64,000 nt of DNA from Alphaproteobacteria bacterium (GCA_037146715.1 JBAWWO010000002.1:81417-145416), one strand, 5' to 3'; numbered from the stretch's first letter, positions 6,260 through 64,000 are shown. Numbers and translations: made by a program. The notes: a model not told the origin generated them from the sequence alone.

Positions 6260-6330
6260 TTTTTCCAACTTCAAATTAAAGCAACATTGCCCTCTTGATT
6301 TTTTCTCCATTTTTTTGTTTCATCTGTTCC

Positions 6331-14924: not shown

Positions 14925-14974
14925 GATTATGAAACATACTCTATAGTCATCCCATGATTCAACATTTTTGTGAA
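14912..14974 (+). repeat. left copy of a 63-bp direct repeat (promoter region plus first 7 codons, MIQHFCE)
   Basis: 62 of 63 nt are identical to 16044-16106 by manual alignment. Confidence 0.9.
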
Positions 14975-14986
14975 AAAGCAAATATC

Positions 14987-21259: not shown

Positions 21260-21262
21260 GAA

Positions 21263-22561: not shown

Positions 22562-22571
22562 TGTGTCCTTT

Positions 22572-23111: not shown

Positions 23112-23123
23112 TTCAAACTAACG

Positions 23124-29451: not shown

Positions 29452-30235
29452 TATTTTTAATCCACATGTTAAAACTCTTTACAAGGCCCAAAATTTCCCG
29501 GGTTTCTATAAACCAAATCAGCACCATAACAATCAGAAAAAATCCTCCCACAAGGCCCCATCCCAAATACCAGGGGCGCAAATTAATAATTTCAGATGAA
29601 TCCCGCTGGTCTAAAGTATGCATATAGGCCTCTTCAAAAAGGGGTAGCCCTTCCCGACGACCGTCCGGAATATCATAGGTAATCATATCATAAAGCTTCT
29701 GCCGATATTGATTTAAAATAGAGGCTGAATTTTCCGCCCGGTACTTACCCTGAAAACCCAATCCAAGACCCATCAAATAAATCACAGCTAAATCTAAAGC
29801 TGAAACATCCCGACCTTGTAAAAAGGTCTCTAAATTTTTAAAAAACTTATCACCCGCATCTTGGGTCCCATAAAGACGAGATTCCAATAAATTATCTTGC
29901 CATTCTAATTTACCCTTCCAGGGAAGGTTTAAAAAAATTTCATCTGCCAAGGAAACCATTACATATTGGGCCTCCTCATAGTAACGGGCCGCATAACCCC
30001 CGCCCTGAATTTCAATCAATCGATATTGAGCCTTTAAGGTTTTTTCCAAACGATTTAGAATTTTACCAGCAAGCGATTGGGATGTTTTTTCTGACAGATT
30101 GCCCTCTAAAGACGCCTCTTCCTCGGCAGAAATTGATCCATCGTTCAAAGCTAAGTGTTTCAATAGAATCAATTCGTCATAGAAAGACCTAAAATTCTGC
30201 ACCAGAACAGATTTCATATACCTTTCTTGCGTCAT
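29432..30235 (-). CDS. tssL: type VI secretion protein TssL (DotU family), no peptidoglycan-binding extension
   Basis: DotU pattern ...MVSLADEIFLN.PW......W....LES.LYGT.DAGDKFF.NLE. There is a single C-terminal TM and the protein ends about 25 aa later. Confidence 0.8.
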   Translation of the reverse strand: MTQERYMKSVLVQNFRSFYDELILLKHLALNDGSISAEEEASLEGNLSEKTSQSLAGKILNRLEKTLKAQYRLIEIQGGGYAARYYEEAQYVMVSLADEIFLNLPWKGKLEWQDNLLESRLYGTQDAGDKFFKNLETFLQGRDVSALDLAVIYLMGLGLGFQGKYRAENSASILNQYRQKLYDMITYDIPDGRREGLPLFEEAYMHTLDQRDSSEIINLRPWYLGWGLVGGFFLIVMVLIWFIETREILGLVKSFNMWIKNNAGTFN

Positions 30236-30242
30236 GGATTAC

Positions 30243-31583
30243 CTATCCTGCTGTATATAAAACAATTTCTTCTGGCCTGCTGTTTTCTGTATCAGACGGA
30301 TTCAAGATCTGCAGAGTTTCTTCAGCCTTAATAAATTTCTCATCAACCAAAACTTTAACAAGCAACTGACGATTAGTAGCCAACAGTCCCATTTCTGAAA
30401 CCTGGTCAACAACTTCCCTGATGGGACCTAATATTCTTTTTTCCTTGGCTTCCTCAAGGGCGGAATCGCAAGCGATAATGGCCCCATTTAGCCAATGGGC
30501 TATGGCCGAAGGTGATGCATCCACCCCCAATTTAATGCCCAAAATCAGATAATCTGTATCCAACCAATCTTTTCTAAGTTTACGTTCAAAAACACGACCA
30601 CTTTTTGTGAATGGCAAAGAAATTGAGGGGCTTTTAACCATTTCAATAATCTTTTCAATAAAATTCACAACGGGATCAAAGGTTGATTTTAAATCATTGT
30701 GGTCATAGGGATCAAAGACAGGCGGAATTTGGCCCCGATGGAGTGCACAATAGGTTCCTGCCGCCACACAAAGCTCTTTATAAACTTCAAAAGGATGACA
30801 TTTTTCAGAAAAATACAGTGCTTCTAAAACAACCACTCGCCCCACAATAATATTATAAATACGGTCATAGTATTCCAGAATAGATGCCGTGTCTTGGGTC
30901 ATCAAACTTTGAAGGCGCTCCCCCAAGAAAGTCGTTCGTTTTCTTAAATTCTTGATCAACCGCCCCAGATATTCCCCGATAATGTTTTGTTGTTGTACGC
31001 TGGTAAAGGGCGGAATAAAGTCTGTTTTTGCAAAAGCATCGTCTTCGAACTTAACCTGCATCAAGGGGAATCCAGAATAGCGAGAAGGCAAATTGTCCCC
31101 CGCCACCAGAAATGCTTTCAAAGAAAGGCGTGGCATAGTAATGGCCCCATCTCCTGTGTTTTCGTCAACGATAGGGTTTGATTCGATGGAATCATATCGG
31201 CAAGGCTGCTGCTCTGTATTTGCAGCATCTTCTTGACGCTCGACAACCGCCAAATAGATGGTAGTGGGTTTCAACAGCAGATCATCTTTCATTCCGGAAA
31301 TATCCAGTTCAATTTTCTGTTTGGATCCAGTTGCTTTCTCAACAACGCTGCCATCTGGCATCATAGCCAAAATTTTGTTGACTCGAATGATACCGCTTAA
31401 CAACAAGGCCTCATCAATTTCCACATGATGAATGCCCCAGTACCAAGGAGTACTAATAGTCAGATAGCATAAGGAAAGCTGCTGAATTTCATGACGCATT
31501 TGCTGGTAATGGTGGGGATACAAAAGCTGCCCTTCGTACCATTGCACCATGTCTTGAATTTTGAAGTTATACTTTTCTTCCAT
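30243..31583 (-). CDS. tssK: type VI secretion baseplate protein TssK
   Basis: N-terminal VQWYEGQLLYPHHYQQ matches the V.W.EG..L.PQHFQQ TssK signature. The length of 446 aa is typical. Confidence 0.85.
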   Translation of the reverse strand: MEEKYNFKIQDMVQWYEGQLLYPHHYQQMRHEIQQLSLCYLTISTPWYWGIHHVEIDEALLLSGIIRVNKILAMMPDGSVVEKATGSKQKIELDISGMKDDLLLKPTTIYLAVVERQEDAANTEQQPCRYDSIESNPIVDENTGDGAITMPRLSLKAFLVAGDNLPSRYSGFPLMQVKFEDDAFAKTDFIPPFTSVQQQNIIGEYLGRLIKNLRKRTTFLGERLQSLMTQDTASILEYYDRIYNIIVGRVVVLEALYFSEKCHPFEVYKELCVAAGTYCALHRGQIPPVFDPYDHNDLKSTFDPVVNFIEKIIEMVKSPSISLPFTKSGRVFERKLRKDWLDTDYLILGIKLGVDASPSAIAHWLNGAIIACDSALEEAKEKRILGPIREVVDQVSEMGLLATNRQLLVKVLVDEKFIKAEETLQILNPSDTENSRPEEIVLYTAG

Positions 31584-41927: not shown

Positions 41928-43400
41928 TTAGTTAGCCGAATTTGGCATCATTTTTTCTTTATATTCTTGCACAAGTTCTTTCAGCAAGGGCTTCATGTAT
42001 TTTGTTTGGTACTTCAAAAGTTTAAGAGGATCCTTCCCAAAAACAGTTGGAACCAACAATACATCTATCAGTTTTTCTTTGGTCCCAAAAGTCTTAAGAA
42101 GAGAATTTTTCAAAATAACAAAAACATCCTTCAATTTCTCTGCATTAATTTTATCATCCTCACTTTTAGCATAAGCATCAATATAACCCTTCAAGAAAGG
42201 CTTTATAATCAGTTGATGCCATTCTTCCGTTGGAATATCACCCTTTGCATATTGATGTTTTTTTCTATTGATAGCCGCAAAAATATAAAACTTTCTAAGG
42301 TCTGCCCCTACGTATCTTGGCTTATTTAATGCTAGGGCCATTGTTTCAGCATCAATAAAGGTAACCGCATTGTGATTTTTTGTATCAATGAAAATGTTAT
42401 TCGAATGCATATCCCCATGAACAGCCGTTGAAAAGCCAGTCAAGTGACCGTTTTTTTCTGTCATGCCAAATAGATGAAACTTACCCAACTGATGACCAAA
42501 ATCATACATTATTTTGGGAAGATCTTTTTTCTGTTTCATATAATTTATTCTTTTTTCCATGTCTTTGTCAGAAGGTGTGGCAACAGAAAAGGCACCGTAG
42601 TTGTCAGCGAAACTTTGCAGTATTTTTATAAGTTGTTCCCCGGGAGCTGCGGGAAGAACTGCTACTGTATGGAGTTTTCCATTTGGATCTCTGTAAGTTG
42701 AAAAAATAACATTTAACGCAATAAAAGGCATTCCCGTAAATGCATTTGGTCCATCAGGATTCAAAATGAACTCTTTAAGGGAGCTTTTTTTAATAATTCC
42801 AATGTTGCTAGTTTCACCAATGCTCTTCTTTAATTCTTTAACAATATATTTAACATCGCCCTTAACATCTTTTACAATAAACAATTGGAGAGTTTGAGCA
42901 CCTCCACCCCCTACAGCATAAGAAGCATAATTATCGTCAAAGTCTTTTATTTTTCCCTTCTTTTTTAAGATCCTTAAAACAGTTGTAATATAGTCTGCAT
43001 TCGTTACATCAGCTGCCTTTACAACAGAAACTTCGTTTACAAGGCTTTCTAGGATAGTTGGAAAACTACTTTTCTCTTCCAAGCCAAATGATTGCCGAAT
43101 ATTATCTATAATTTCTACAGTGCATTTCTGATCTTCTTTACAGACTGAAATACTGTTGTTTTCATAACTGAAGGTTCCATCTTTTTTCAAAGAATGTTTG
43201 ACTAAACAGCACTTACAAGAATTTAGCTGCATATCTTCTGACCATTTCCAATTAGAGGCTTTACAACTAGTGCTACGAGTCATAATTTTTTGAACACCCC
43301 CAATTTCAACAACCGCTGTACCAGAGCGGGTTATTCTAAAAGAATGGGCATTGAAAAAAAATGTTGCGAAGGCAACTAAAATAGCCAAAAATGAAGTCAT
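41928..43400 (-). CDS. exported protein-kinase-like (APH/choline-kinase fold) protein with Cys-rich N-domain
   Basis: AGGAGA lies 5 nt before the ATG. Signal peptide MTSFLAILVAFATFFFNAHS. There are 7 Cys within about 50 aa. GGGGAQ loop, YIVKELK lysine, HGDMHSNNIFID catalytic loop (42384-42419) and FIDAE. Confidence 0.7.
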   Translation of the reverse strand: MTSFLAILVAFATFFFNAHSFRITRSGTAVVEIGGVQKIMTRSTSCKASNWKWSEDMQLNSCKCCLVKHSLKKDGTFSYENNSISVCKEDQKCTVEIIDNIRQSFGLEEKSSFPTILESLVNEVSVVKAADVTNADYITTVLRILKKKGKIKDFDDNYASYAVGGGGAQTLQLFIVKDVKGDVKYIVKELKKSIGETSNIGIIKKSSLKEFILNPDGPNAFTGMPFIALNVIFSTYRDPNGKLHTVAVLPAAPGEQLIKILQSFADNYGAFSVATPSDKDMEKRINYMKQKKDLPKIMYDFGHQLGKFHLFGMTEKNGHLTGFSTAVHGDMHSNNIFIDTKNHNAVTFIDAETMALALNKPRYVGADLRKFYIFAAINRKKHQYAKGDIPTEEWHQLIIKPFLKGYIDAYAKSEDDKINAEKLKDVFVILKNSLLKTFGTKEKLIDVLLVPTVFGKDPLKLLKYQTKYMKPLLKELVQEYKEKMMPNSAN

Positions 43401-43443
43401 GGTACTCTCCTGATTATTATTATTTAGTATCATAATAGAAAAA

Positions 43444-49599: not shown

Positions 49600-51081
49600 A
49601 TGAAATTTTTAATGTTAATCAGCTTTAGTATCATGATGATCTTTTGCTGCCCCTCTTTTGGTGCACATCAAGAAGTAAAAGATTTAACCCCAACTCAAAA
49701 ACTCTTTTTACTAGAAAAAGTCAGAGATGTTGCTGAGTTCCAGAACCTAGAACGAGCTGGTTTCGAAAAAGTTACTCAGTTTATTGCAGAGACTTTAGGG
49801 GAAAAATACGGCCCAACTTTTTGCCCAATGGATCCAAGCTCGTGGGATGAAACTTTATTTTCTTTAATTCGAACTCGACATTATTACAAAGGCATGCCCA
49901 CTTTAGTATCAGAAAATTTTTTCAAATATGATGCTGAAAAATTGCAAAATGGTTTATTTCTGCAAAGAATGCAGGTGCTTTTTTTTCTAGATCGATTAGT
50001 TGCTAATTCTTTGTGTAAAACGACATTTGAAGATATGTGGAAAGATGGGGCAGCTTTTGGAAATTATCCCCCCCACATAATCGCAATCTTAGAGCAAGAC
50101 TTTCAATTATATGGGGGAAATTTGTACAAGGAAAATTATGGAAAAAACAATACGGTTAATACCTTGTTCAAAATCCACAACACTTTCTTTGAAAAAGCTT
50201 TTGATATTTATAGTCTTTTTGCCCCACCAATCACCTTGGAATCTTTTTATACTGAAATTTCACAAGTGGTCAACTGGCGTGGGTGGATCATTCATAATGA
50301 TGTAAATGCTATCTTTAAGGGACTGGGAGAATTGCGCTCATTCCGAGATAGTCCATTAAAAAAACTCCATTTCTTTTCAACAACAAGTCGTGGATTTTGG
50401 CTTCCACAAGAAATCGAGGAAGATTCGGCAGAATTTACTATTGCGATTGAATATAATTTCCCCTATCCCCTTTTAAGTTTAGAACAGAATAGATTTATTA
50501 TTACTAAATCAGTAAAAAAGGATTTCAGAGCATTTGTTTACACTAATTATTCTGCAAATGTCGAAAAATATCTTGTTACGAGGGACCAAAATTTTGCCTC
50601 AAAAAAAGCGGGGATAAATTTTATGAATTCTCCAACAGAAAGAATGGAATTTCTAAGAGATATTTCCAGATTTAGAGACCCCTTGCCTCAATTCACTTAT
50701 GCAAATGCAAATTTTAATGGAATGGCGGGAGAGCAAGATTTCGTAGCAGCAAGAGCTTATCACAAACTTTCTGCAGATCAGGGATTTATGCCAGCTCAAT
50801 TTTCTTATGCGCTGATGTGTAGAAATGGTGAAGGTGGTGACCAAGATCTGCCAGAAGCACGGATGTATTTTAAGCTTGCTGCTGATCAAGAAGAAATGGA
50901 ATCTGAAGTTTGCTATGCCAATATGTGTTATAGAGGCGAAGGAGGTGATCGAAACCTTAAAGAAGCCATTACTTACTATGAACGCGCAGTATCTAAAGGA
51001 AATGCCGCATTTAAGAAAGTTTTAGAGGCTGCTCGATTAGAGCTAAAATCTAATCAATCAGAAATTTCAGAAACTGTTTAG
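49600..51081 (+). CDS. exported protein with C-terminal Sel1-like (TPR-type) repeats
   Basis: Signal peptide MKFLMLISFSIMMIFCCPSFGA. At least three Sel1-type units (A..YHKLSADQGFMPAQFSYALMCRNGEGGDQDLPEARMYFKLAADQ..., ...YANMCYRGEGGDRNLKEAITYYERAVSKGN). Confidence 0.8.
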   Translation: MKFLMLISFSIMMIFCCPSFGAHQEVKDLTPTQKLFLLEKVRDVAEFQNLERAGFEKVTQFIAETLGEKYGPTFCPMDPSSWDETLFSLIRTRHYYKGMPTLVSENFFKYDAEKLQNGLFLQRMQVLFFLDRLVANSLCKTTFEDMWKDGAAFGNYPPHIIAILEQDFQLYGGNLYKENYGKNNTVNTLFKIHNTFFEKAFDIYSLFAPPITLESFYTEISQVVNWRGWIIHNDVNAIFKGLGELRSFRDSPLKKLHFFSTTSRGFWLPQEIEEDSAEFTIAIEYNFPYPLLSLEQNRFIITKSVKKDFRAFVYTNYSANVEKYLVTRDQNFASKKAGINFMNSPTERMEFLRDISRFRDPLPQFTYANANFNGMAGEQDFVAARAYHKLSADQGFMPAQFSYALMCRNGEGGDQDLPEARMYFKLAADQEEMESEVCYANMCYRGEGGDRNLKEAITYYERAVSKGNAAFKKVLEAARLELKSNQSEISETV

Positions 51082-51184
51082 AAAATAAATTTTTCAGATT
51101 TTTTCTTTTCCCTCTATCCAAAAAGGAAAGTCTTCTGTATGTTGGCGGAAAAATAAAGTCTAACATGGAACGTTGGCGGTACTT

Positions 51185-52978
51185 ATGAAATTTTTCTTTC
51201 TTTCTATCCTATTGATAGGCCTGACTTCTTGTAAAAATCCCCCTATTAAAGATGTGACTACAACTCATACCCGTACAGAAATTGGGGATTTTTTGACAGA
51301 AAAAACGTCGATTCCTGAGAAAGAATCATCCTCTACAGAAAATAAAAATACCATGTCCCCGGCTATTTCCCCCATTTTCAATAAGCGGGTTTCTTTGCGC
51401 ATTGATGACACTATGGATGTGAAAGAGATTCTGAAAAAACTAGCTACTCAGGCTAAGATCAGTTTGGTTTTAAACAAAAATGTGGAAGGCAGCGTTAACT
51501 ATCAGGTTGAAAAACAGCCCTTTCTAAAAGTAATTGAAACCATTTGTCACATGGCTAATTTGCGCTATAAAGTTGATCATGAAATTCTGTGGATTGAACG
51601 AGATCTACCCTATCTTAAAACCTATAATGCCCAGTTTCTATCTCTTGAACGCAACACGGAAAATCAAGTTTCTATCAACAGTAATATCTTTGGAAAAACA
51701 GATTCAGATCAAAGCTTAGCTAATGGGTCTTCCAGCATTATTTCAAGTAAAAATAATATTGATTTTTGGGCCGAGTTGGAAAATAGCTTGGCCAATATTT
51801 TGCAGATCTCAAGTTCCCAAACCACCTTTGATGAGGAGCAAGAAATTCATGAAGAAAAGAAAATTTTAAGTGACGATCTGCTGCCCCAAGAAAAAGTAAA
51901 TCGCGTGAGAACTGTTGAGAAAAAGAAAAAAATAGCCTACAAAAAACCATCCTTTTCTATCCATAAACAAGCGGGAATCGTGACTGTTTTTGCGACAGAA
52001 AAGCAGCATAAAATCATTCAAGATTTTATGGCCAATTTACGCAAAAAAACATCAACCCAAATTCTGATTGAAGCCAAGGTAGTGGAAGTTCATTTAAACG
52101 AGGAATACAAAAGCGGCATAGATTGGCAACGGATCGGCCACTATGGAATTGGAGCCTATTCATCTTCGGGCCCTCATAACGGATTCACGGGCGACTTGAA
52201 TGCAACCAGCATGTTGGGGACCATGGCACAAAAGAGATCAGCCCTTGTATCTAACCCAGAAACATCCCAAGTGATTAGTTTGGGGCTAAGTGGGCCATCC
52301 CTTTCTGCCATGCTGAATTTTATGGAAGCTTTTGGAACGGTGCGAACCCTTTCCAGCCCGCGTCTGACTGTTTTAAATAATCAAACGGCCATTTTAAAAG
52401 TGGCAGAAAATTATATCTTTTTTGACATTACCGCAGACCGGCAGTTTCTAAATAGTAGCAACATAAACTATGGCACCCTGGTTTCTGCTACCAGCAAACC
52501 CCGCAGCATTCCGATTGGCCTTGTCATGGCGGTGCAACCGTCTATTGACGAAGAATCCGATGAAGTTATTTTAACATTACGCCCCACTATTTCCAGACTG
52601 ATTGCGACTAAAGAGGATCCGGCTGTTCAGCTGCTCAACCAATCTTTACCCACCCCTTCGGCTAATTTAAAATCTGAATTTCCCGTGGTGGCTGTTCGGG
52701 AAATTGATTCAGTTTTGCGTATAAAATCTGGGGGCATTGCGGTTCTGGGGGGGTTAATGACAGAAGGCGCTGAAACGGGTTCCGCCGGCATCCCCGGAAC
52801 GGCGGATTCGGCTGTTAGTTTTTTAACTACCTCAAAAAGACAGGCGCGAGTGGTTTCTGAATTGGTCATATTTATACGGGCCACCATCCTAAGTGAAAGC
52901 CGCCCTGATGCAGCCGATTTTCGCTTGTATGACAGATTTACGAAAGACCCCAGACCTCTGGAGAATAAACCCGCATGA
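51185..52978 (+). CDS. secretin-family outer-membrane channel lipoprotein (MshL/PilQ-like)
   Basis: Lipobox LIGLTSC. N0-like domain (VSLRIDDTMDVKEILKKLA...ISLVLNKNVEGSV). ILIEAKVVEV N1 motif. Secretin core SSPRLTVLNNQTAILKV...GGIAVLGGLM...ELVIFIRATIL. Confidence 0.88.
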   Translation: MKFFFLSILLIGLTSCKNPPIKDVTTTHTRTEIGDFLTEKTSIPEKESSSTENKNTMSPAISPIFNKRVSLRIDDTMDVKEILKKLATQAKISLVLNKNVEGSVNYQVEKQPFLKVIETICHMANLRYKVDHEILWIERDLPYLKTYNAQFLSLERNTENQVSINSNIFGKTDSDQSLANGSSSIISSKNNIDFWAELENSLANILQISSSQTTFDEEQEIHEEKKILSDDLLPQEKVNRVRTVEKKKKIAYKKPSFSIHKQAGIVTVFATEKQHKIIQDFMANLRKKTSTQILIEAKVVEVHLNEEYKSGIDWQRIGHYGIGAYSSSGPHNGFTGDLNATSMLGTMAQKRSALVSNPETSQVISLGLSGPSLSAMLNFMEAFGTVRTLSSPRLTVLNNQTAILKVAENYIFFDITADRQFLNSSNINYGTLVSATSKPRSIPIGLVMAVQPSIDEESDEVILTLRPTISRLIATKEDPAVQLLNQSLPTPSANLKSEFPVVAVREIDSVLRIKSGGIAVLGGLMTEGAETGSAGIPGTADSAVSFLTTSKRQARVVSELVIFIRATILSESRPDAADFRLYDRFTKDPRPLENKPA

Positions 52979-53625
52979 AAAAACTCTCTTTCTTTATAAA
53001 ACCCGTAAAAAACACTGAAGGCTTTTTGTTGATCGAGGTGGCTATTGCCCTTCTGATTATTGGCTTACTAATAGGGGGTGTTTTAAAGGGGAAGGAATTA
53101 TTGGAAACCTCTAAATTACAAGCCGTTATAAAAAATTTAGAAACTTATCGGGTTGCCACCCAATTGTTTCAAGACCGCTATGGATTTTTGCCCGGAGATT
53201 TTCCTGAGGCGACGACCTATTTGAATTCAACTTTAAAAGATGGAAACGGGAATGGAGCGGTGGAAGATTCTGAATCTAGCCAATTTTGGGCCCATCTATC
53301 TGTATCTGGTTTTCTACAAGCATCTACAAAGGAGGCCCCTCAAGAAAAAATCGGGGGATGCGTCACAGTTGTCCATACTCCAGCCCCAGATCTTCCCGGG
53401 AATTGGTTTCTGTTGGGCGAACGAAATGGATCCAAAAATGATGGAGCACTGTTAACCCCTATTCAGGCAAAGACCCTTTGCCAAAAAATGGATAACCCGA
53501 ATCCGAATGAAGGATCGGTTCAAGTTAAAGATGGTGCTAATGTCCCACCGGGCAGCTGTATTGATCAGGGCCAATTTAATGGAAAAACAAAAAATCCAGC
53601 GTGTGTAGTTTATGTCGCCCTATAA
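52975..53625 (+). CDS. prepilin-type N-terminal domain protein (pilin/pseudopilin-like), 216 aa
   Basis: Class III signal: leader MKKLSFFIKPVKNTEG, then FLLIEVAIALLIIGLL with Glu at +5. The ATGA start overlaps the secretin stop. Confidence 0.8.
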   Translation: MKKLSFFIKPVKNTEGFLLIEVAIALLIIGLLIGGVLKGKELLETSKLQAVIKNLETYRVATQLFQDRYGFLPGDFPEATTYLNSTLKDGNGNGAVEDSESSQFWAHLSVSGFLQASTKEAPQEKIGGCVTVVHTPAPDLPGNWFLLGERNGSKNDGALLTPIQAKTLCQKMDNPNPNEGSVQVKDGANVPPGSCIDQGQFNGKTKNPACVVYVAL

Positions 53626-54385
53626 GCTGCTTAAAAATGATGAAGGATTTTTGTTGATTGAGGTGGCGATCGCTCTGTTGATTATGGGGATTATTCTAGG
53701 GTTTGGGATGCCGAAGATTTTTTCCTATCTAACTTTGCAAAAACGTAAAGAAACAACAGAACGACAGGAACGTATTTTTCATAGCGTTGCTGCTTTTAGC
53801 ATTCAATATGGATACATCCCTTTGCCAGCTGACCCTTATGCTCTACCCGATCAATTTGGGTGGGCACGTTCTAGGGCTTCTTCTGAAAAAGATCTGGTGG
53901 GGTTGGTGCCTTATAAAACCTTGGGACTACCGGCTGACTATAGCAAGGATGGATTTAATCATTATTTCACCTATGCAGGGGGCTGGCCGAATCCTGGGTT
54001 TGTTACTAGAAAAATACAAACAATTTGTCAAATGCGCCTGCCCTTTCCTTTAAATATTTCTTCCTATGCGGGCCCTGATCCCATCCTTCTAACCCTGATC
54101 AGCTATGGGGAAAAAGGGAGGGGAGCTTACAAAGGATCACCAGGGCATTTATATAGAAATAGGGAAGGTTTAACTGCAGGCGAAAAACAAAATGCAGCTG
54201 AAGATTTAGGTTTCATAGATCAGGCACCAACCCCAAATTTTGATCATCATGTGGCCTGGGTAACGGGACGAAATTTAATGGCTATTTATGGAAAGGTTCC
54301 TATGGAGGAATTAAATAAACCTGACACAGATTCTGCTGCCATTTTTACGTCAGGAAATAGACAAACCACTGAAGGTATAGCTTAG
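53612..54385 (+). CDS. prepilin-type N-terminal domain protein (pilin/pseudopilin-like), 257 aa
   Basis: Leader MSPYKLLKNDEG, then FLLIEVAIALLIMGIIL. Overlaps the previous gene by 14 nt. Confidence 0.8.
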   Translation: MSPYKLLKNDEGFLLIEVAIALLIMGIILGFGMPKIFSYLTLQKRKETTERQERIFHSVAAFSIQYGYIPLPADPYALPDQFGWARSRASSEKDLVGLVPYKTLGLPADYSKDGFNHYFTYAGGWPNPGFVTRKIQTICQMRLPFPLNISSYAGPDPILLTLISYGEKGRGAYKGSPGHLYRNREGLTAGEKQNAAEDLGFIDQAPTPNFDHHVAWVTGRNLMAIYGKVPMEELNKPDTDSAAIFTSGNRQTTEGIA

Positions 54386-54400
54386 AAAGGATACTTAATT

Positions 54401-54748
54401 ATGGCAAAAATTTTTATACTGAATCCAAAAGGGGCCAAAAAAACTCCCCAACGCTTCTATGAAATCCCCCACAAGAACAAGCCTATTAAGCAAAAAATTT
54501 CTGTTCGGAAACAACTGAATCATTGGTTGCCTGCTATAGGTGTTGTGTTAGGACTTAGTCTATGTAGTTTATCTTTACTTTTGTACTATTGGGAGCAGCA
54601 AGAAACAATCGTTCTGCCGGATTTAAAGTTGCCCGAAACTTTGTATGTCAGCGATACAAAAAGGCCCAAACCTTTTGTGAATCCACAAGATGATTTGTCA
54701 GTTCCTTTTATTAAAGTAGAAGATGCAGAAGATTTGCACAAGGATTGA
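54401..54748 (+). CDS. small single-pass membrane protein, hypothetical
   Basis: 115 aa with a basic N-terminus and one TM (WLPAIGVVLGLSLCSLSLLLYYW). Lies 15 nt after the second pilin-like gene. Confidence 0.5.
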   Translation: MAKIFILNPKGAKKTPQRFYEIPHKNKPIKQKISVRKQLNHWLPAIGVVLGLSLCSLSLLLYYWEQQETIVLPDLKLPETLYVSDTKRPKPFVNPQDDLSVPFIKVEDAEDLHKD

Positions 54749-58134: not shown

Positions 58135-61100
58135 TTAATCCCGCCTATTTTCTTGCAGTTTTAAATCATTAACCTGAGATAAAAGATTTTTTGCAATCAG
58201 CTCTTCTTTTTTAATTCTTTCTATATCTTTTTGCAGTTCAGCAGGGAGGTTATCTGTCTTTACTGATAGAAAGCGATGATCCATGTTAAATGCAGGACCT
58301 TGATATTCCATATCTGAGATTTTATTGGCTAAAATTCTATTATCATTTTCATCGCTGCCTCTGATATTTTCCTGACGGAGGGTTCTCAGCTTTTTCTCCA
58401 AAGCATGGGTTTTCCTTTTATAATCGGGATCATAGGTTTGATTACCTACATCATGGTCTTCAAGAGCCTTCTGTAAGGCCGGCGCAAGTTTTACAGGACC
58501 AATAGGAATCCATTCAAGATTTTGGAAATTAGATGAATCATCTTCTGCAGCATCTAAACTTGAAACAACCTGAGACCCATTAACGCTTAGACTAAACGAA
58601 GTATCTTGGGTTCCAGAATCTGTGGGGTCAACAGGCTGTTGTGATTGGTCTATTGGGTTACCTGAATCATTCGTAAACCCATCAGATCCTCCCTGATTTT
58701 CATCCCCACCCAAATCTGGGGAACCTCCTAAAAGTTGCCCTGTGATATCATCAGGGGTGAATGTTGTATCCACTGTTCCGGGATCCGCAGGGTCTGTTGG
58801 GACATCACCGGGTGCTATTTCAATGGTATAAGATCCATCAGGTGCTGTATAATTGCCGTCTCCATTACCTCCTTGTCCTGAATCCTGGTTTGATCCCAAA
58901 CCCGGATCAGTCGGAAGATCACCATTTCCCCCATTATTGTTCGTTGGATTTGGCGGTAGAGGGGGCTCTGGTTGGGGTGGTGTTGGGGGGCCTCTATAAA
59001 TAATATATGTCTCTGCAACTGGCCCAGGGGCAGGATTAAAAACTATCCAAGTACCTGGTTCAACCGTATAGATTGGCCATTGATTGGTGTAAAGAGTTGG
59101 AATGCCTACCATTGTTACGGTGCCGTTATAGATTTGATTGTTCACTGTATAGGCGCTACCGCTTAAAGTTATGGCTGGGGCTGTGGTGGTTAAAGAGGTC
59201 AGCGGAGCCCCCGTCCAAACCCCTATTTGACCCATGGATAGGGTTCCTGCTGCATTTAAGGTTAGATTTTGCGCCGTGGGAGTGCTTGTGATCGCCCCAA
59301 TACTTATATTGTTGGCAGTGCTTGTTAGGGTGGCATCTGTTCCAGATAGATTTGTAGTGCCTGTATAAGTTTGACTTTCTGTGGTGGTTATATTGTCAGT
59401 TAAGTTTATAAGAGTCGCTATACTATTTAAACTTGTAAGGGGTGTGCCTGACCCTATAAGGGGTAGTTGAAGCGTCTCTACGACTCCTCCATCGGGGGCG
59501 CCCTGAATTGTTAAAGAGTGGGCGCCATCGATTGTGCTAGGCGCTTGTCTTCCAAACCCATTCGTGAAAGTCTGAAATCCAATTTGTCCAGTAACGGTTT
59601 GTAATGTGACATCACCATTTAAGATAACAGCACCAGTGTAAATTTGTAGCCCTTCTGTGATAGTCGTTATATTTCCTAGGGTAATGTTGCCCAAACTGCC
59701 CCCATTCAAGGCCGTTGCCGTTAAATTGCTTAAGGAATGTGTCGTTCCTATATTATTAGGCAGGCTAATATTAGCTGCAGAAAGAGTAAGATTATATGAG
59801 GTTTCAAATCCATTAATGCTGCTGCTAAAAATTATATCCGTATTGGTTGTTAAAGTAGAGTCTGCTCCTACGGTTACCGGCCCATGATAAGTTTGATTGC
59901 CTGTTGTCGTTATGTTTCCGGTAAAAGCTATGTTTGGGGTTGTGCTGTTCCCTAGTACTAATGTGTTGACACCCGTAACTGTAGCTAATTTTACTCCGCC
60001 TCTACCTGATGGGACATCAATGGTTAGATTAAATGGACCGCCAAGTGCGTTACCTGTTATTGTACTGTTAATAAATAGAATGCCATCATCTTTAGTGGCG
60101 GGAGATGTTGTTACGGTCAATGCTAGGTTATTGCCTAGATTTACCGGCATCGTATAGCTTTGGAGCAGTTGTGTTGTAACATTATCACGTATGGTAATCG
60201 TTCCTACCCCTGAAATATCCATCGATATCAGTGGAATTATTCCACCAACAACCCCACCAAAGTATACTCCTTGCGATCCTGAATTCGTTGTCAAGACAGA
60301 GGCCCCGTTAAGGGTTGATGTAAAAGAAATAAGGCCAGAAATACCAGTTGTCGTTAATGTAATCGGCGTTGCAGCCAAATTTACTGGCCCATAATAAGTT
60401 TGTGGTCCCGTCGTTGTAGCATCCCCAATTAAATCTATAGCGCTGGCAGTGACAGATAGAGTCGTTAAGTAAGGTACAGTATTTAAAACAGGCAAATTAG
60501 CTTGGGTAACAATTCCTCCACCTGTAGTTCCCTGAATAGTTAAAGCATAAGATCCTGTGATAGTGCTATCAGCAGAGAACTCAATTGAACCATTGGTTGC
60601 TTTCAAAGCCAGGTCATTATCCAATGTCATAGACGCCGTATAACTTTGGTTTCCAGTTGTCGCAATAGAACTGGTACCATTTACGGTAAGGGCTCGGTTT
60701 GCAGCACCATTAGGACCAACGGTTAGGCTGGTTATGGGGGTTGTGTCTCCTATATCAGCATTTAAGTTAATTGTGTTTGCATAAACAAAAAGATCTTGTG
60801 CCCCATCAATGGTGCTGCCAATAGTTATCGTGTCTCCTCTTAAGGTTGGATCTGCGGCTAAGGTAATTGCACCCCCATAGGTTTGATCACCTGTGGTTGT
60901 GACATTACTAGTCAGAATAGTAGAAACCCCACTTCCTATAGTTAATGATGCTAAGTTAGCAGAACCAAAAGTCACCTGAGTCGTGGGAGTTGCAATGATT
61001 AGATTATGCGCGCCGTCAACACTTCCATCAAATTCGATGTAATTGGTTTCAGAAGTTAAAGTAAAATCTGAATCTAAAGTAACATTACCAGAATAGGTTT

Positions 61101-64000
61101 GAGTTCCTGATGTTGTAATAGAACTGTTTAAGGCCGTTGTTCCAGAAACACTAAAATTATTGATATTGGTAAACAGTCCATTCAAAGCACTGTTTCCAGT
61201 GATGGTCAAGTTATATGGAGTACCTGTACCTGTTGCTATAAGAGGTCCTAAACTGATCGTACCTCCTGTCAATGTTAAATTGTCAGCCCCTAAAGTTATG
61301 CTGCCCGAATAGGTCTGTGTTCCTGTGGTAGTGACATTGCCATATAAATTAACAGGTCCAATCCCTGTGTTCACAGAAGCTAGGGAAGTTCCTGAACCCA
61401 CATTGCCCCCAAATGTGATGGACCCTGTTCCTGTACTTAAAATAAGATCATAATTCCCATTAATTGCACTTTGAAAATTAATAGGATTACTACTACTGTT
61501 TAAGGACGTATTGGTACCTAGGGTAACGGCTCCCCCATACAGTTGGTTGGCAGAAGTAGATACATTTCCTCCCAAAACAATAGTAATCGGATTTGTGATG
61601 GTTAAGTGTGTTAAATAGTTGCCTCCTCCTCCCACATTACCAAATCCTACGCTTCCAGTTGATGAGGCAATAGTCAAACCATAATGGGTTCCACTGGTTA
61701 CTCCGCTAATATCTGCCAGAGTGATAAAGGTTCCATTTAAAGTTGTATTGCCGCCCAAGGTTGCAAGTCCAGTGTAGACCTGAGTACCTGTAGTCGTAAT
61801 AGAAACATTTAGCTTTGAGGGGCCATCAATTCTTAGGTTATCTATATTGTCAACGGTATCATTCATGGTGACAAGTCCCTCCGTTGCTGAAAGCGTTAAA
61901 CTGTTGCCTCCCCCCGCTATGGACGTATTCAAAGTGACATTTCCTGTCGTTGATTCCAGAGTAGAATCTGTATTCAAGGTAACAGTTCCAGAATAGGTTT
62001 GACTGTCTACAGTAGTAATGCCCCCGTTAAGAGTAATCGCATTAGTATCGTTTATTAAAAGGGTAGTTAAAGGATTGGAAAATCCAATGTTTCCTAGTGT
62101 TACACCAGATGTTGATCCATTAATTGTTAAGCTATAAGCAGATATGGTTCCATCAACATTACCTAGGGTAAGAGTGCTGCTGTTTCCAGCTGTTAGGGTT
62201 CTGGTGTTTCCTAATGTAACAGTGCCCCCATAGATTTGATTACCGGTTGTGGTGATATCTTCATTTAAAGTGATTGTGTTTGCCGAATAATCAGAACCAT
62301 TATTCACACTAAGATTATTAATATTATTAATTGGATTATTCAGGGTCATGTTTCCTGTAAGGGTAAAATTGTGTCCATTTCCGGCAACAGTTTGTAAAAC
62401 AACTGTCCCCCCTTCTGTTGAACTTAGGGTAAGATCATCATTCAAAGTCAGGGTATTTCTATAAGTTTGATCGCCTGTAGTGGTGATAGAGATAGGACTT
62501 AATCTCCCCATACTAATCGGCCCTAATCCCGTGTCTAGAGAGATTAGTGGTGTAGTCGTTCCCGCACTTCCCCCAAAAGAAAGGGCTCCAACTCCTGTGC
62601 TTAAGGTAAGTGCATGGGCCCCATCAATAGCGCCACCAAAGGTGATATTATGATCTGTTGTGGTCAGAGTAGAATCTGCACCTAATGTCATCGCTCCTGT
62701 ATAGATTTGTGTTCCTAATGTTGTTATAGAGTTATTTAAGGCAGTTGTTCCCGAAACACTGAAATTACCAACAACACTAAAGGCTCCATCCAGAACGCTG
62801 TTACCTGTAATGGTTAAATTATTGCCTGCCCCTGTAATAGCTTTTAACGTAATAGTGCTACCTTCAAGAGTCAAATTTGTACCCAAAGTCATTGGACTAC
62901 CATAGGTTTGATACCCTGAAGTAGTGATGCCAGAAATACTATTGCTTAAAGTGATAGTGTTATCGGGCAACCCATCATTGATACTAAGGTTGTTTACGCC
63001 AGAAATATTATCATTCAGATCTACAGCGTTTCCTGCAATATTAAGGCTATAGTTTTGCCCAGTAACTGCACCCAATTCGATGGTACCCCCGGCCGTTAAG
63101 GCCATATCATCACTCAAAGTCATCGTTCCACCATAGGTTTGAGCACCTGTGGTAGCAATAGAAGTTGGAGTTGCCCCCCCCGCCGGCCCCATGTTCACAG
63201 CGCTTGCCCCTGTATTCAAAGAACCCAGAGCATAGATTAATCCCATATTTCCGTCAAAATTCACATTTCCGGTCGCAGCAAGAGTTAGGGCCTGTCCTTG
63301 ACTTCCGCCCTCTCCATCAGGTGTGGCATCAACAGTGCTGTAAAAAGAGATATCTCCACTACTGTTCGTTAAAATGATTGTTCCCGATGGGGTACCCCCC
63401 AATGTTACAGTTCCCGGATAAGTTTGAGCGGTTGTGGTTGTAACGTCACCTGTTAAGGTGGCAGGAATGGTTGAATCTATTTGTAAAGTATGTACGTTTG
63501 TAATTGTACCAAAAGTAACCGCTGATGCTGATGCGATGTGTAGATTAGAACTCTCTCCACTGACGTTACTCATGATAATGAGTCCAGTTCCTGCCGTTAG
63601 AACAGACCCGCTGTTCAATGTTATGGTTCCACCATAGTTTTGACCATCTGCTCCCGTGGTAGTGACATTTCCGGTTAGGCTAACAGCTCCAGATCCTGTG
63701 TTGAGAGAAGTTAAGGCAGTTAGGGGCGTATAGCCCACATTCCCGCCAAAAGTCACGCTGCCGGCGCTTCCTCCAGATCCTGTGTTAAGGGTAAGAGCAT
63801 GGGCCCCGCTTATCGTACCACTAAACCCTATATTACTATTCGTCGTCTTCAAAGTAGCATCTCCACCTAAGGTTATCCCCACATAAGATTGGGACCCTGT
63901 TGTGATGATGTTATTATTTATCGCGACAGTGTTGCTTGGTGTACTATCAAGGGAAGTCAAATTTGTTCCCCCACCTACAACTCCTGTAAATGTGACAACT
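58135..64000 (-). CDS. giant repetitive beta-helix-type surface or secreted protein (more than 1950 aa; N-terminus lies beyond the window)
   Basis: The frame stays open past 63960 to the window edge (...VVTFTGVVGGGTN-LTSLD). About 21 copies of an (I/V)TTxGxQxYxGxhTL motif are present. A Pro-rich hinge starts near 58989, followed by a D/G/N/T/P-rich linker and a charged helical C-terminus. Confidence 0.85.
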   Translation of the reverse strand, partial: VVTFTGVVGGGTNLTSLDSTPSNTVAINNNIITTGSQSYVGITLGGDATLKTTNSNIGFSGTISGAHALTLNTGSGGSAGSVTFGGNVGYTPLTALTSLNTGSGAVSLTGNVTTTGADGQNYGGTITLNSGSVLTAGTGLIIMSNVSGESSNLHIASASAVTFGTITNVHTLQIDSTIPATLTGDVTTTTAQTYPGTVTLGGTPSGTIILTNSSGDISFYSTVDATPDGEGGSQGQALTLAATGNVNFDGNMGLIYALGSLNTGASAVNMGPAGGATPTSIATTGAQTYGGTMTLSDDMALTAGGTIELGAVTGQNYSLNIAGNAVDLNDNISGVNNLSINDGLPDNTITLSNSISGITTSGYQTYGSPMTLGTNLTLEGSTITLKAITGAGNNLTITGNSVLDGAFSVVGNFSVSGTTALNNSITTLGTQIYTGAMTLGADSTLTTTDHNITFGGAIDGAHALTLSTGVGALSFGGSAGTTTPLISLDTGLGPISMGRLSPISITTTGDQTYRNTLTLNDDLTLSSTEGGTVVLQTVAGNGHNFTLTGNMTLNNPINNINNLSVNNGSDYSANTITLNEDITTTGNQIYGGTVTLGNTRTLTAGNSSTLTLGNVDGTISAYSLTINGSTSGVTLGNIGFSNPLTTLLINDTNAITLNGGITTVDSQTYSGTVTLNTDSTLESTTGNVTLNTSIAGGGNSLTLSATEGLVTMNDTVDNIDNLRIDGPSKLNVSITTTGTQVYTGLATLGGNTTLNGTFITLADISGVTSGTHYGLTIASSTGSVGFGNVGGGGNYLTHLTITNPITIVLGGNVSTSANQLYGGAVTLGTNTSLNSSSNPINFQSAINGNYDLILSTGTGSITFGGNVGSGTSLASVNTGIGPVNLYGNVTTTGTQTYSGSITLGADNLTLTGGTISLGPLIATGTGTPYNLTITGNSALNGLFTNINNFSVSGTTALNSSITTSGTQTYSGNVTLDSDFTLTSETNYIEFDGSVDGAHNLIIATPTTQVTFGSANLASLTIGSGVSTILTSNVTTTGDQTYGGAITLAADPTLRGDTITIGSTIDGAQDLFVYANTINLNADIGDTTPITSLTVGPNGAANRALTVNGTSSIATTGNQSYTASMTLDNDLALKATNGSIEFSADSTITGSYALTIQGTTGGGIVTQANLPVLNTVPYLTTLSVTASAIDLIGDATTTGPQTYYGPVNLAATPITLTTTGISGLISFTSTLNGASVLTTNSGSQGVYFGGVVGGIIPLISMDISGVGTITIRDNVTTQLLQSYTMPVNLGNNLALTVTTSPATKDDGILFINSTITGNALGGPFNLTIDVPSGRGGVKLATVTGVNTLVLGNSTTPNIAFTGNITTTGNQTYHGPVTVGADSTLTTNTDIIFSSSINGFETSYNLTLSAANISLPNNIGTTHSLSNLTATALNGGSLGNITLGNITTITEGLQIYTGAVILNGDVTLQTVTGQIGFQTFTNGFGRQAPSTIDGAHSLTIQGAPDGGVVETLQLPLIGSGTPLTSLNSIATLINLTDNITTTESQTYTGTTNLSGTDATLTSTANNISIGAITSTPTAQNLTLNAAGTLSMGQIGVWTGAPLTSLTTTAPAITLSGSAYTVNNQIYNGTVTMVGIPTLYTNQWPIYTVEPGTWIVFNPAPGPVAETYIIYRGPPTPPQPEPPLPPNPTNNNGGNGDLPTDPGLGSNQDSGQGGNGDGNYTAPDGSYTIEIAPGDVPTDPADPGTVDTTFTPDDITGQLLGGSPDLGGDENQGGSDGFTNDSGNPIDQSQQPVDPTDSGTQDTSFSLSVNGSQVVSSLDAAEDDSSNFQNLEWIPIGPVKLAPALQKALEDHDVGNQTYDPDYKRKTHALEKKLRTLRQENIRGSDENDNRILANKISDMEYQGPAFNMDHRFLSVKTDNLPAELQKDIERIKKEELIAKNLLSQVNDLKLQENRRD

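What the first reader, a model, noticed from the sequence alone, without database searches (positions are those of the whole stretch)
51185..54748. Minimal secretin plus two prepilin-like genes plus small membrane protein, without ATPase, platform or prepilin peptidase
A secretin lipoprotein (MshL/PilQ-like core) is followed by two overlapping genes for proteins with class III signal sequences, and then by a 115-aa single-pass membrane protein. The junctions are an ATGA overlap, a 14-nt overlap and a 15-nt gap. The window contains no PilB/GspE-type ATPase, no PilC/GspF platform, no PilM/N/O/P and no PilD peptidase. The flanks are a Sel1-repeat protein and rsmI. The cluster could be the outer part of a type IV filament machine encoded in pieces. 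DprA at 6331-7422 would fit a DNA-uptake pseudopilus. Alternatively it could be a pared-down secretin system of unknown use.
Basis: partly seen in the sequence, partly recalled or inferred. Interest (0 to 1): 0.65.

Follow-up and report, generated by a model that had tools for sequence, protein, structure and literature searches.

The report
Outer half of a split pilus machine
These four genes encode the outer-membrane pore and filament subunits of a type IV pilus-like machine whose motor genes lie elsewhere in relatives' genomes; this split layout is normal for this group of Holosporales-like bacteria, so the finding is real but ordinary.

Summary
Window 51185-54748 holds a tightly packed, same-strand set of four genes: a lipoprotein secretin, two proteins with intact class III (prepilin) signals, and a small single-pass membrane protein. 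No ATPase, platform or prepilin peptidase lies anywhere in the 64 kb.

It is not a pared-down orphan system. The secretin plus two-pilin cassette is conserved in many uncultured Alphaproteobacteria, including Holosporales and Micavibrio relatives. In some relatives it sits directly beside a PilB/GspE-type ATPase, a GspF-type platform and two conserved accessory proteins. In Micavibrio-type genomes PilD and PilT/PilU join them in one ~17 kb locus.

In closer relatives the motor genes form a separate four-gene operon. Twice that operon turned up in the same sequencing run as a window-clade secretin contig of matching composition.

The secretin and both pilin-like genes are under purifying selection, and the locus is intact in natural populations.

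The best reading is the outer-membrane and filament module of a divergent, multi-locus type IV filament machine, most likely a pilus. Published work already notes "incomplete type IV pili" in most Holosporales. I could not check the motor genes in this genome itself. The link to DprA and DNA uptake is unsupported.

The parts
51185..52978 (+). Lipoprotein secretin, the outer-membrane channel. It is MshL/BfpB-like, with an N0-like domain, N-domains and a C-terminal secretin core.
   Evidence: Pfam Secretin 1.2e-18. NCBIfam ranks MshL 175.9 > GspD 87 > PilQ 74.5 bits, all below their cut-offs. The lipobox L-T-S-C is seen in the sequence, and homologues also carry an L-x-x-C signal. The AF2 model has pLDDT 67.6, and its best fold match is the liposecretin BfpB at E 1.8e-19. 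There are 1,638 homologues at E<=1e-5. pN is far below pS against relatives.
52975..53625 (+). Pilin-like protein A, the probable major subunit. It has a 16-aa leader, G(-1) F(+1) E(+5), a conserved PGD motif and a C-terminal Cys pair.
   Evidence: In alignment A3 of 22 orthologues F17, E21, P73 and G74 are invariant, and G16, D75 and C210 are nearly invariant. The profile hits PilE at 1e-6 over residues 14-80. The family has 5,790 representative clusters at E<=1e-10, many matching over full length. pN is 0.06-0.34 against a saturated pS of about 0.7. ATGA overlap with the secretin stop codon.
53612..54385 (+). Pilin-like protein B, probably a minor pilin. It has a class III signal and a different, faster-evolving globular part.
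   Evidence: In alignment A4 L15 and E17 (the +5 Glu) are invariant and G12 (the -1 Gly) is nearly invariant. The profile hits geopilin at 2.6e-7 and GspG at 8.6e-5. It shares only the N-terminal 66 columns with family A (hhalign probability 98%). It is always the second gene after the secretin, in 16 of 79 species-representative loci.
54401..54748 (+). Small single-pass (bitopic) membrane protein. It belongs to the module only tentatively.
   Evidence: One hydrophobic span at residues 43-61. A small protein with one membrane span occupies the same position in L003, L004, L014, L087 and L089, and L092 and L094 have a short ORF (58-60 aa) there. Identity is only about 30% and pN is 0.41-0.50. 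A short motif F-I-x-V-E-D follows the membrane span in several, read directly from the sequences. Holosporaceae-type loci carry an unrelated HIT-family gene at this position. No family match.

Best explanation
The four genes form the outer-membrane and filament module of a divergent type IV filament (type IV pilus-like) machine that is encoded at several loci.

Inferred mechanism:
- The secretin is exported, lipidated at Cys16 and inserted in the outer membrane as a multimeric gated channel. Lipoprotein secretins such as BfpB can often do without a separate pilotin.
- Pilin-like A and B are inserted in the inner membrane through their hydrophobic N-terminal helix.
- A prepilin peptidase (PilD type), encoded elsewhere, cuts them after Gly(-1).
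- A PilB/GspE-type ATPase polymerises them on a GspF-type platform, helped by two accessory membrane proteins (~420-530 aa and ~180-215 aa). B probably primes or caps the filament and A forms its body.
- The filament passes through the secretin.
- In relatives those motor genes form a separate four-gene operon, and the same is expected in this genome.

The most likely product is a surface pilus used to attach to a host or prey cell, rather than a secretion piston or a DNA-uptake fibre.

Shown: gene identities, the class III signals, conservation and purifying selection, physical linkage to the motor genes in relatives, and absence of those genes from this window.

Inferred: presence of the motor genes elsewhere in this genome, the division of labour between A and B, and the biological role.
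For: 1. Identity of the parts.

2. Linkage in relatives.
- L026, L017 and L072 read secretin, pilin, pilin, then ATPase (T2SSE + MshEN, 1.6e-114), platform (T2SSF) and a ~500-aa protein, with a further ~200-aa protein in L026.
- L004 (secretin 45% identical to the window's) has the same four motor-side genes within 7 kb on the opposite strand.
- Micavibrio-type loci carry everything, including PilD and two PilT-like ATPases, in one ~17 kb locus.
- PilD sits directly upstream of the secretin in six loci.

3. Split layout is typical. Of 7 secretin-plus-two-pilin loci with at least 8 kb on both flanks, 5 have no ATPase or platform nearby. All window-clade loci examined share this layout: L003, L086-L089, L092-L094 and L096-L099.

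4. A stand-alone operon of ATPase, platform, ~420-aa and 178-aa proteins occurs in L083, L084, L085 and L095. Its accessory proteins are homologous to those next to the secretin in L004 and L026.

5. Same-run co-occurrence with window-clade secretin contigs, seen twice.
- SRR22388164 holds L093 and L085. ERR4193932 holds L099 and L095.
- GC matches for the first pair (0.428 against 0.430), and L093 is the nearest non-orthologous contig to L085 by tetranucleotide distance.
- Divergence is consistent across the two pairs: PGI 86%, MutL 82% on one side and GyrA 95%, SSB 87% on the other.

6. The module is maintained. pN is far below pS for the secretin and both pilins. G(-1) and E(+5) are kept across the families. 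A 9,681-nt contig in run X1 is 100% identical, and no indels appear in four runs.

7. Pilus rather than pseudopilus.
- The secretin is nearest MshL and BfpB.
- Pilin A has a C-terminal Cys pair and is about 200 aa when mature.
- PilT/PilU are present in the complete loci of relatives.
- The ATPase carries an MshE-type c-di-GMP-binding motif, above cut-off in L083 and L026.

8. Literature: most Holosporales have 'incomplete Type IV pili' by TXSScan (PMC9992710). T4aP are usually encoded at multiple loci (PMC6668835).
Against: - The motor genes and PilD were not found for the window's own genome or its nearest subclade (W, P0002, P0003, P0004). Only 64 kb of the genome was available.
- The ATPase homologue lists were saturated by generic PilB/GspE hits, and no contig-size cross-match was found.
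- The same-run evidence is co-occurrence in metagenomes, not proof of one genome. It concerns subclade B, which is only about 55-60% identical to the window in housekeeping proteins.
- GC of L095 (0.433) and L099 (0.458) differs by 2.5 points.
- One relative (L086) has a deletion removing the signal of pilin B, so loss does happen.
- No expression data: the available metatranscriptomes were too shallow.
- The pilus-versus-secretion call rests on resemblance only.
Confidence: 0.75

Rival explanations
1. It is the same split machine, but it works as a type II secretion-like piston. A and B would form a short periplasmic pseudopilus that pushes folded proteins through the secretin, for example host-interaction effectors of an intracellular bacterium.
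For: - By sequence profile the secretin is closest to solved T2SS GspD structures (1.3e-16).
- The relatives' platform is nearest GspF, and the ATPase scores almost equally as GspE and PilB.
- The window-clade and Holosporales-type loci examined show no PilT near the module.
- Only two pilin-like genes are present, so the filament may be minimal.
Against: - Every T2SS equivalog is far below its cut-off: GspD 87 against 351, GspG 14-17 against 89, GspE about 415-452 against 630.
- No GspC, GspL or GspM was detected.
- Pilin A is about 200 aa when mature and has a C-terminal Cys pair, unlike the ~134-aa GspG.
- The secretin's best NCBIfam and fold matches are pilus secretins, MshL and BfpB.
- Complete loci in relatives carry PilT/PilU retraction ATPases.
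Confidence: 0.2
2. It is a DNA-uptake (competence) pseudopilus module that works with DprA.
For: DprA is present in the window (6295-7422). It lies 2-3 kb downstream of the module in clade C relatives. Type IV filaments with secretins mediate DNA uptake in many Gram-negative bacteria (established knowledge).
Against: - DprA is widespread in bacteria (established knowledge), including many that are not known to be transformable. In relatives it sits in a dprA-topA pair next to housekeeping genes.
- It is 45 kb from the module in the window.
- No comEA or comEC was seen in the window or in any locus.
- HofQ and ComG-type models score far below their cut-offs.
- In L092 DprA is split into two ORFs.
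Confidence: 0.1
3. In this genome it is an orphan: the motor genes have been lost. The module would then be either a decaying remnant or a secretin-based system with another use, such as a channel used by another apparatus.
For: - No partner gene lies within 51 kb upstream or 9 kb downstream.
- The literature calls Holosporales type IV pili 'incomplete' (PMC9992710).
- The partner ATPase of the window's subclade was not recovered.
- L086 shows a deletion in pilin B.
- In 13 of 14 fully flanked loci where no pilin-like gene was detected, including Paracaedibacter and Odyssella, no motor gene was detected either.
Against: - All four ORFs are intact.
- Both class III signals are perfectly kept, which only makes sense if a prepilin peptidase and an assembly motor exist.
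- pN is far below pS for three genes.
- There are no indels in natural populations.
- Relatives with the same isolated cassette co-occur with a stand-alone motor operon.
Confidence: 0.1

Closest known systems
MSHA pilus system of Vibrio / Shewanella (secretin MshL, ATPase MshE)
   Same: MshL is the best-scoring NCBIfam model for the secretin (175.9 bits), and JGI annotators call many homologues MshL. The secretin is a lipoprotein. The relatives' ATPase has the MshEN domain and an MshE-type c-di-GMP-binding motif. A large (~420-530 aa) and a small (~180-215 aa) accessory protein occupy positions like MshI and MshJ; this last point is from memory and was not tested.
   Different: The MshL score is below its equivalog cut-off of 250. 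No MshM-like ATPase and no set of 5-7 Msh pilins occurs in any locus. MSH is almost always a single locus and is known from Gamma- and Epsilonproteobacteria (PMC6668835), whereas this system is alphaproteobacterial and split. Complete relatives carry PilD in the locus, and MSH loci do not.
Type IVa pilus (PilA, PilB, PilC, PilD, PilMNOP, PilQ, PilT)
   Same: It is encoded at several loci, as T4aP usually are (PMC6668835). The ATPase's top NCBIfam model is PilB (420-467 bits). PilT/PilU-like ATPases and PilD are in the complete loci of relatives. The pilins have F at +1 and E at +5. Pilin A matches PilE at 1e-6.
   Different: The PilQ model scores only 74.5 against 284, and there are no AMIN domains. 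PilM/N/O/P are not recognisable. The leader is 16 aa, which is long for T4a. Only two pilin-type genes sit next to the secretin. All equivalog scores are below their cut-offs.
Bundle-forming pilus secretin BfpB (type IVb, EPEC), with its partner BfpG
   Same: It is the best structural match of the secretin model (E 1.8e-19). Both are lipoproteins. The long pilin leader and the large (~200 aa) mature pilin are T4b-like.
   Different: Sequence identity is 14%. F at +1 is T4a-like. No other Bfp components are present. Any analogy between the small fourth ORF and BfpG is speculation.
Type II secretion system (GspD, E, F, G)
   Same: It has the same superfamily and overall architecture. The secretin profile is closest to GspD among solved structures. 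The platform is nearest GspF.
   Different: All T2SS equivalogs are far below their cut-offs. GspC/L/M and GspH-K are not found. Pilin A is much larger than GspG.
'Incomplete type IV pili' reported for Holosporales genomes by TXSScan (PMC9992710)
   Same: This is very probably the same gene set. The secretin family includes Finniella, Odyssella, Paracaedibacter and Holospora, and the window also carries the reduced T6SS typical of that group.
   Different: That paper gives no gene-level description. The modular layout, the two-pilin cassette and the two unannotated accessory proteins are described here for the first time, as far as the searched literature shows.

Membership tests
Secretin superfamily (Pfam PF00263) | C-terminal secretin domain scoring above the gathering threshold | tested here: met
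   67.8 bits against 27.5. The fold search returns secretins only, with 45 hits at E<=1e-3.
MshL (NCBIfam TIGR02519 equivalog) | Score at or above the curated cut-off of 250.2 bits | tested here: not met
   175.9 bits. It is the best of all secretin models but below the cut-off.
MSH system (MacSyFinder model, PMC6668835) | [quoted passage not shown] | tested here: not met
   No MshM-like (ExeA/AAA) protein occurs in the window or in the complete loci of relatives. The L026 and L055 neighbours were scanned with Pfam.
MSH system (MacSyFinder model, PMC6668835) | Encoded almost exclusively in a single locus, with no prepilin peptidase in the locus | tested here: not met
   The system is split into separate modules in 5 of 7 fully flanked loci. 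PilD is in or next to the locus in 17 loci.
Type IV pilins (class III signal peptide) | Short positively charged leader, Gly at -1, hydrophobic alpha-1 helix, Glu at +5 | tested here: met
   The motif is read directly in both proteins. F17 and E21 are invariant and G16 nearly invariant in A; E17 is invariant and G12 nearly invariant in B. Profile hits to solved pilins are at 1e-6 and 2.6e-7.
Type IV pilins (Pfam N_methyl PF07963) | Score at or above the gathering threshold of 21.2 | tested here: not met
   13.6 and 14.5 bits for the window proteins. An orthologue-family member in L055 passes with 28.2 bits. The shortfall reflects FLLIE in place of the consensus FTLIE.
Type IV pilins | Cleavage and N-methylation by a prepilin peptidase | not testable with these tools
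   No PilD is in the window. PilD is present in relatives' loci.
Type IVa pilus | PilQ, PilB and PilC equivalogs plus PilM/N/O/P alignment proteins | tested here: not met
   PilQ scores 74.5 against 284. The relatives' ATPase scores 420-467 against 676 for PilB, and the PilC models 84-151 against 700. The accessory proteins have no Pfam, NCBIfam or PDB sequence match.
Type IVa pilus | Retraction ATPase PilT | tested here: inconclusive
   Two PilT-like genes occur in Micavibrio-type loci. None was seen near Holosporales-type modules. The rest of the genome could not be searched.
Type II secretion system | GspD, GspE, GspF and GspG equivalogs plus GspC/L/M | tested here: not met
   GspD 87 against 351 and GspG 14.6-17.5 against 88.9. 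GspE 415-452 against 630 and GspF 143-201 against 424. No GspC, GspL or GspM hits.
Tad pilus | RcpA secretin, TadA ATPase without an N-terminal domain, TadB/TadC platform, short Flp pilin | tested here: not met
   RcpA is only rank 40 in the fold search. The relatives' ATPase carries MshEN, and their platform has two T2SSF repeats in one protein. The pilins are 216-257 aa.
Competence (DNA-uptake) pilus | Association with ComEA/ComEC, and HofQ- or ComG-type components | tested here: inconclusive
   HofQ scores 35 against 554-598 and ComGA 240-257 against 300. No comEA or comEC occurs in the window or the loci. The genome-wide search could not be made.

The most novel reading that the evidence does not exclude
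The cassette may belong to a distinct, streamlined class of type IV filament machine. It would be shared by Holosporales-like endosymbionts and Micavibrio-like predators and fit none of the named classes (T4aP, T4bP, MSH, T2SS, Tad, Com). Its features would be:
- an MshL/BfpB-like self-piloting liposecretin;
- only one major and one minor pilin;
- a c-di-GMP-sensing PilB/GspE-like ATPase;
- two alignment proteins with no recognisable relatives.

In obligate intracellular lineages this class would have been broken into two portable modules and kept for host-cell contact or effector export.
Probability: 0.3. Interest if true: 0.5.

Novelty: new member of a known kind. Interest (0 to 1): 0.3.

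Why it matters
- For annotation: a secretin with two 'hypothetical' neighbours should be read as half of a pilus-type machine, not as a stand-alone oddity. The two neighbours are pilins that standard Pfam thresholds miss.
- For Holosporales biology: the 'incomplete type IV pili' repeatedly scored in these host-dependent bacteria may be complete but modular, with two accessory proteins that current models do not recognise. That would make a surface filament a candidate for host attachment or entry, alongside the better-known type VI system.
- This is a modest refinement of what is known, not a new kind of system.

Tried and rejected
1. Finding the window genome's own ATPase.
- Two homologue searches, with the L004 ATPase and with a profile of the P0126 clade, were saturated by generic PilB/GspE hits at 43-48% identity.
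- No contig-size cross-match with the secretin-bearing contigs was found.
- Two cluster look-ups for organism names gave nothing usable.

2. A metagenome scan with the system-specific ~420-aa accessory protein returned only two L004-type contigs.

4. Structure prediction of the pilin-like proteins.
- The single-sequence model of A had pLDDT 42.7 and was not used.

5. Expression. Three metatranscriptomes from the same sample hold no contig of this organism, not even GroEL, so they say nothing.

6. Promoter and terminator scans gave counts equal to shuffled sequence.

7. Sel1 protein as a pilotin-like partner: rejected. It is adjacent to the secretin only in the window, L021 and L032, and not in the closest relative L002.

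8. Prophage or island origin: rejected. The flanks are housekeeping genes, composition is in the normal range, and the module is vertically conserved across subclades.

9. Accessory proteins as PilM/GspL: no sequence-level support.

10. The literature gave only one coarse statement, PMC9992710. Nothing was found on Micavibrio or Bodo-symbiont type IV pili.


Full report
**Observation.**
- A secretin at 51185-52978. An upstream TTG at 51173 is an alternative start.
- A 216-aa ORF at 52975-53625, with an ATGA overlap onto the secretin stop.
- A 257-aa ORF at 53612-54385, with a 14-nt overlap.
- A 115-aa ORF at 54401-54748, after a 15-nt gap.

The secretin passes Pfam Secretin (67.8 bits against 27.5). 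Among NCBIfam models it ranks MshL (175.9 bits) above GspD (87) and PilQ (74.5), all below their equivalog cut-offs. Its N-terminus, MKFFFLSILLIGLTSC, is a lipoprotein signal, and the homologues listed carry an L-x-x-C signal too.

Both following proteins read ...EG|FLLIEVAIALLI..., which is a textbook class III signal with Gly at -1, Phe at +1 and Glu at +5. Pfam N_methyl nevertheless scores them below threshold. The fourth ORF has a single hydrophobic span.

Pfam scans of essentially all other large ORFs of the window found no T2SSE-type ATPase, T2SSF platform, A24 peptidase or PilM/N/O/P. tblastn with relatives' ATPase, platform, PilD, PilT and accessory proteins gave only noise.

**Who carries it.** The secretin has 1,638 homologues at E<=1e-5, mostly from uncultured Alphaproteobacteria. 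A scan of species-representative genomes returned 80 loci. They include Candidatus Finniella, Odyssella, Paracaedibacter symbiosus, Holospora undulata and H. curviuscula, many Holosporales and Holosporaceae MAGs, Micavibrio and a Rhodospirillum.

The window's organism comes from freshwater and lake metagenomes. It also carries TssA, TssM, TssL and TssK genes, which fits the reduced T6SS reported as typical of Holosporales (PMC9992710, PMC11909080). Three secretin subclades surround the window:
- Clade A: the window, P0002, P0003 and P0004.
- Clade B: P0005-P0007.
- Clade C: P0008, P0010, P0012 and P0017.

**The cassette is conserved and selected.** I clustered all ORFs of the loci. A pilin-like gene directly follows the secretin in 21 of 79 loci, and two follow it in 16. 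Every window-clade locus examined has the order secretin, pilin-like A, pilin-like B, small ORF: L003, L086-L089, L092-L094 and L096-L099.
- In family A, F(+1) and E(+5) are invariant. G(-1), a PGD motif and a C-terminal Cys are nearly invariant.
- In family B, E(+5) is invariant and G(-1) nearly so.
- Profiles of A and B hit solved type IV pilins: PilE at 1e-6, geopilin at 2.6e-7 and GspG at 8.6e-5.
- A and B share only the alpha-1 helix region (hhalign probability 98% over 66 columns), so they are two different pilin types.
- A belongs to a large full-length family, with 5,790 representative clusters at E<=1e-10.

Non-synonymous divergence is far below saturated synonymous divergence for the secretin, A and B (pN 0.06-0.40 against pS about 0.7-0.8). 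The fourth ORF evolves fast, at about 30% identity.

In the natural population the locus is intact. A 9,681-nt contig in run X1 is 100% identical at about 14x depth, and no indels or joints appear in four runs.

The flanks differ between subclades. Clade A has GT9 and Sel1 upstream and rsmI downstream. Clade B has PSD, PssA and LOG upstream. Clade C has PolA upstream and rpe downstream. The genes therefore move as a cassette.

**What it belongs to.** In L026, L017 and L072 the two pilin-like genes are followed directly by these genes:
- an ATPase with T2SSE and MshEN domains (E 1.6e-114);
- a T2SSF platform;
- a ~480-530-aa protein, in L026 and L072 (the L017 contig ends inside the platform gene);
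- a ~200-aa protein, in L026.

In L004, whose secretin is 45% identical to the window's, the same four genes lie within 7 kb on the other strand.

In nine Micavibrio-type loci everything is in one ~17 kb locus. The order is ATPase, platform, ~530-aa, ~215-aa and ~200-aa proteins, ABC, TPR, PilD, PilT, PilT/U, then the secretin, an AraC regulator and a pilin. PilD is immediately upstream of the secretin in six further loci.

The ~420-530-aa and ~180-215-aa proteins are each homologous across these loci. They have no Pfam, NCBIfam or PDB sequence match.

The ATPase scores almost equally as PilB and GspE, below both cut-offs. It carries an MshE-type c-di-GMP-binding motif, above cut-off in L083 and L026. 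The platform is nearest GspF.

The secretin model (pLDDT 67.6) matches the liposecretin BfpB best (E 1.8e-19). By sequence profile it is nearest GspD.

**Is the split layout normal?** Yes. Of seven secretin-plus-two-pilin loci with at least 8 kb on both sides, five lack any ATPase or platform. Conversely, a stand-alone operon of ATPase, platform, ~420-aa and 178-aa proteins occurs in L083, L084, L085 and L095, always beside gyrA, ssb and a ShlB-type gene.

Two independent coincidences tie this operon to the window's clade.
- L085 comes from run SRR22388164, the same run as the clade-B secretin contig L093.
- L095 comes from run ERR4193932, the same run as the clade-B secretin contig L099.

L093 and L098 carry the SBP-DUF3035-PGI-MutL block that the window has at 19451-24281.

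Composition agrees with this pairing. The motor-operon contigs are closest in tetranucleotide signature to window-clade secretin contigs and far from L004, Micavibrio and Finniella. L085 and L093 have GC of 0.430 and 0.428.

Divergence between the two runs' contigs is also mutually consistent. It is 82-86% for PGI, MutL and SBP, and 87-95% for SSB, BolA and GyrA.

This is good but indirect evidence that clade-B genomes carry both modules at separate loci. For the window's own subclade A, the partner genes could not be looked for.

**Mechanism.** The best-supported reading is the outer-membrane and filament module of a multi-locus type IV filament machine. The steps below are inferred from established knowledge of the superfamily.
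- The lipidated secretin forms the outer-membrane channel.
- A and B are cleaved after Gly(-1) by a PilD-type peptidase.
- They are polymerised by the ATPase, platform and accessory complex encoded elsewhere.
- A forms the filament body, and B acts as a minor pilin that primes or caps it.

Several features favour a surface pilus over a secretion piston.
- The secretin has MshL/BfpB affinities.
- Pilin A is large and carries a C-terminal Cys pair.
- Complete relatives carry PilT/PilU.
- The ATPase carries a c-di-GMP-binding motif.

The T2SS-like alternative keeps about 0.2. The DNA-uptake idea has no specific support: DprA is 45 kb away and forms a dprA-topA pair in relatives, and no comEA or comEC was seen. 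The orphan or remnant reading is disfavoured, because both class III signals are perfectly preserved and the genes are under purifying selection. It cannot be excluded for this genome.

**Comparison with known systems.** The system fails membership of MSH on three counts: there is no MshM, it is not a single locus, and PilD sits in the locus (PMC6668835). It also fails membership of T4aP, T2SS, Tad and Com at the level of curated models. It works like a T4aP/MSH-type pilus.

The literature already states that most Holosporales possess 'incomplete Type IV pili' by TXSScan (PMC9992710), and that T4aP are usually multi-locus (PMC6668835). So the finding is a new member of a known kind, with some unannotated parts.

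**Verdict.** The feature is real and correctly observed, and its explanation is ordinary.
- Interest: 0.3.
- Confidence in the split-machine explanation: 0.75.
- Most novel reading not excluded: a distinct streamlined type IV filament class shared by Holosporales-like and Micavibrio-like bacteria. Probability about 0.3, interest 0.5 if true.

Noticed in passing
window 24263-31583 (- strand): A type VI secretion gene set: TssA (ImpA_N), TssM (IcmF-related), TssL (DotU) and TssK (VasE). It fits the reduced T6SS described as typical of Holosporales.
   Followed up: partly
window 58135-63960 (- strand): A very large ORF (1,941 aa) with no Pfam match at all. It could be a giant surface or effector protein.
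   Followed up: no
window 41928-43433 (- strand): A 501-aa ORF with no Pfam match, lying between a RmuC gene and a thioredoxin/DsbA-like gene.
   Followed up: no
window 14954-15958 (+ strand): A protein combining a RhuM virulence-family domain with a Fic/DOC domain. It may be a toxin or effector.
   Followed up: no
window 49600-51081 (+ strand): A Sel1-repeat protein with a signal peptide lies directly upstream of the secretin. A Sel1-like neighbour is also seen in L032 and L021 but not in the closest relative L002, so no conserved link to the module is supported.
   Followed up: yes
L086 12400-13300, compared with L087 and L088: One public MAG of a window-clade species has an in-frame 243-nt deletion that removes the N-terminus (class III signal) of pilin-like B. 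Other assemblies of the same species are intact. This is either strain-level loss or an assembly artefact.
   Followed up: partly
L092 15375-16450: DprA is split into two ORFs (294 and 61 aa) in one clade-C relative. This is either a frameshift or a sequencing error.
   Followed up: no
L093, L098 and L099, compared with window 19451-24281: The MutL-PGI-DUF3035-SBP block lies a few kb from the secretin module in clade B (separated by a ~1,170-aa ORF) but 27 kb away in the window. The module's flanks differ in each subclade, so it relocates as a cassette.
   Followed up: partly
L085 compared with L095, and L093 compared with L099: Between the same two presumed genomes the motor module diverges faster than the outer module. 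The ATPase is 73% identical, the platform 60% and the accessory proteins 58-59%. The secretin is 85% and the pilins 71-77%. GyrA is 95% identical.
   Followed up: no
L083 6319-9863, L085 6084-9799, L095 5058-9118: The stand-alone motor operon always sits beside a ShlB-type two-partner-secretion transporter and a large unannotated protein (612-795 aa, only about 26-36% identical between species).
   Followed up: no
L055 11876-13395 and equivalent positions in Micavibrio-type loci: Two conserved proteins (~255 and ~248 aa, clusters 5 and 4) directly follow the secretin in 18-19 loci and have no Pfam match. They occupy the place that the two pilin-like genes have in the window.
   Followed up: no
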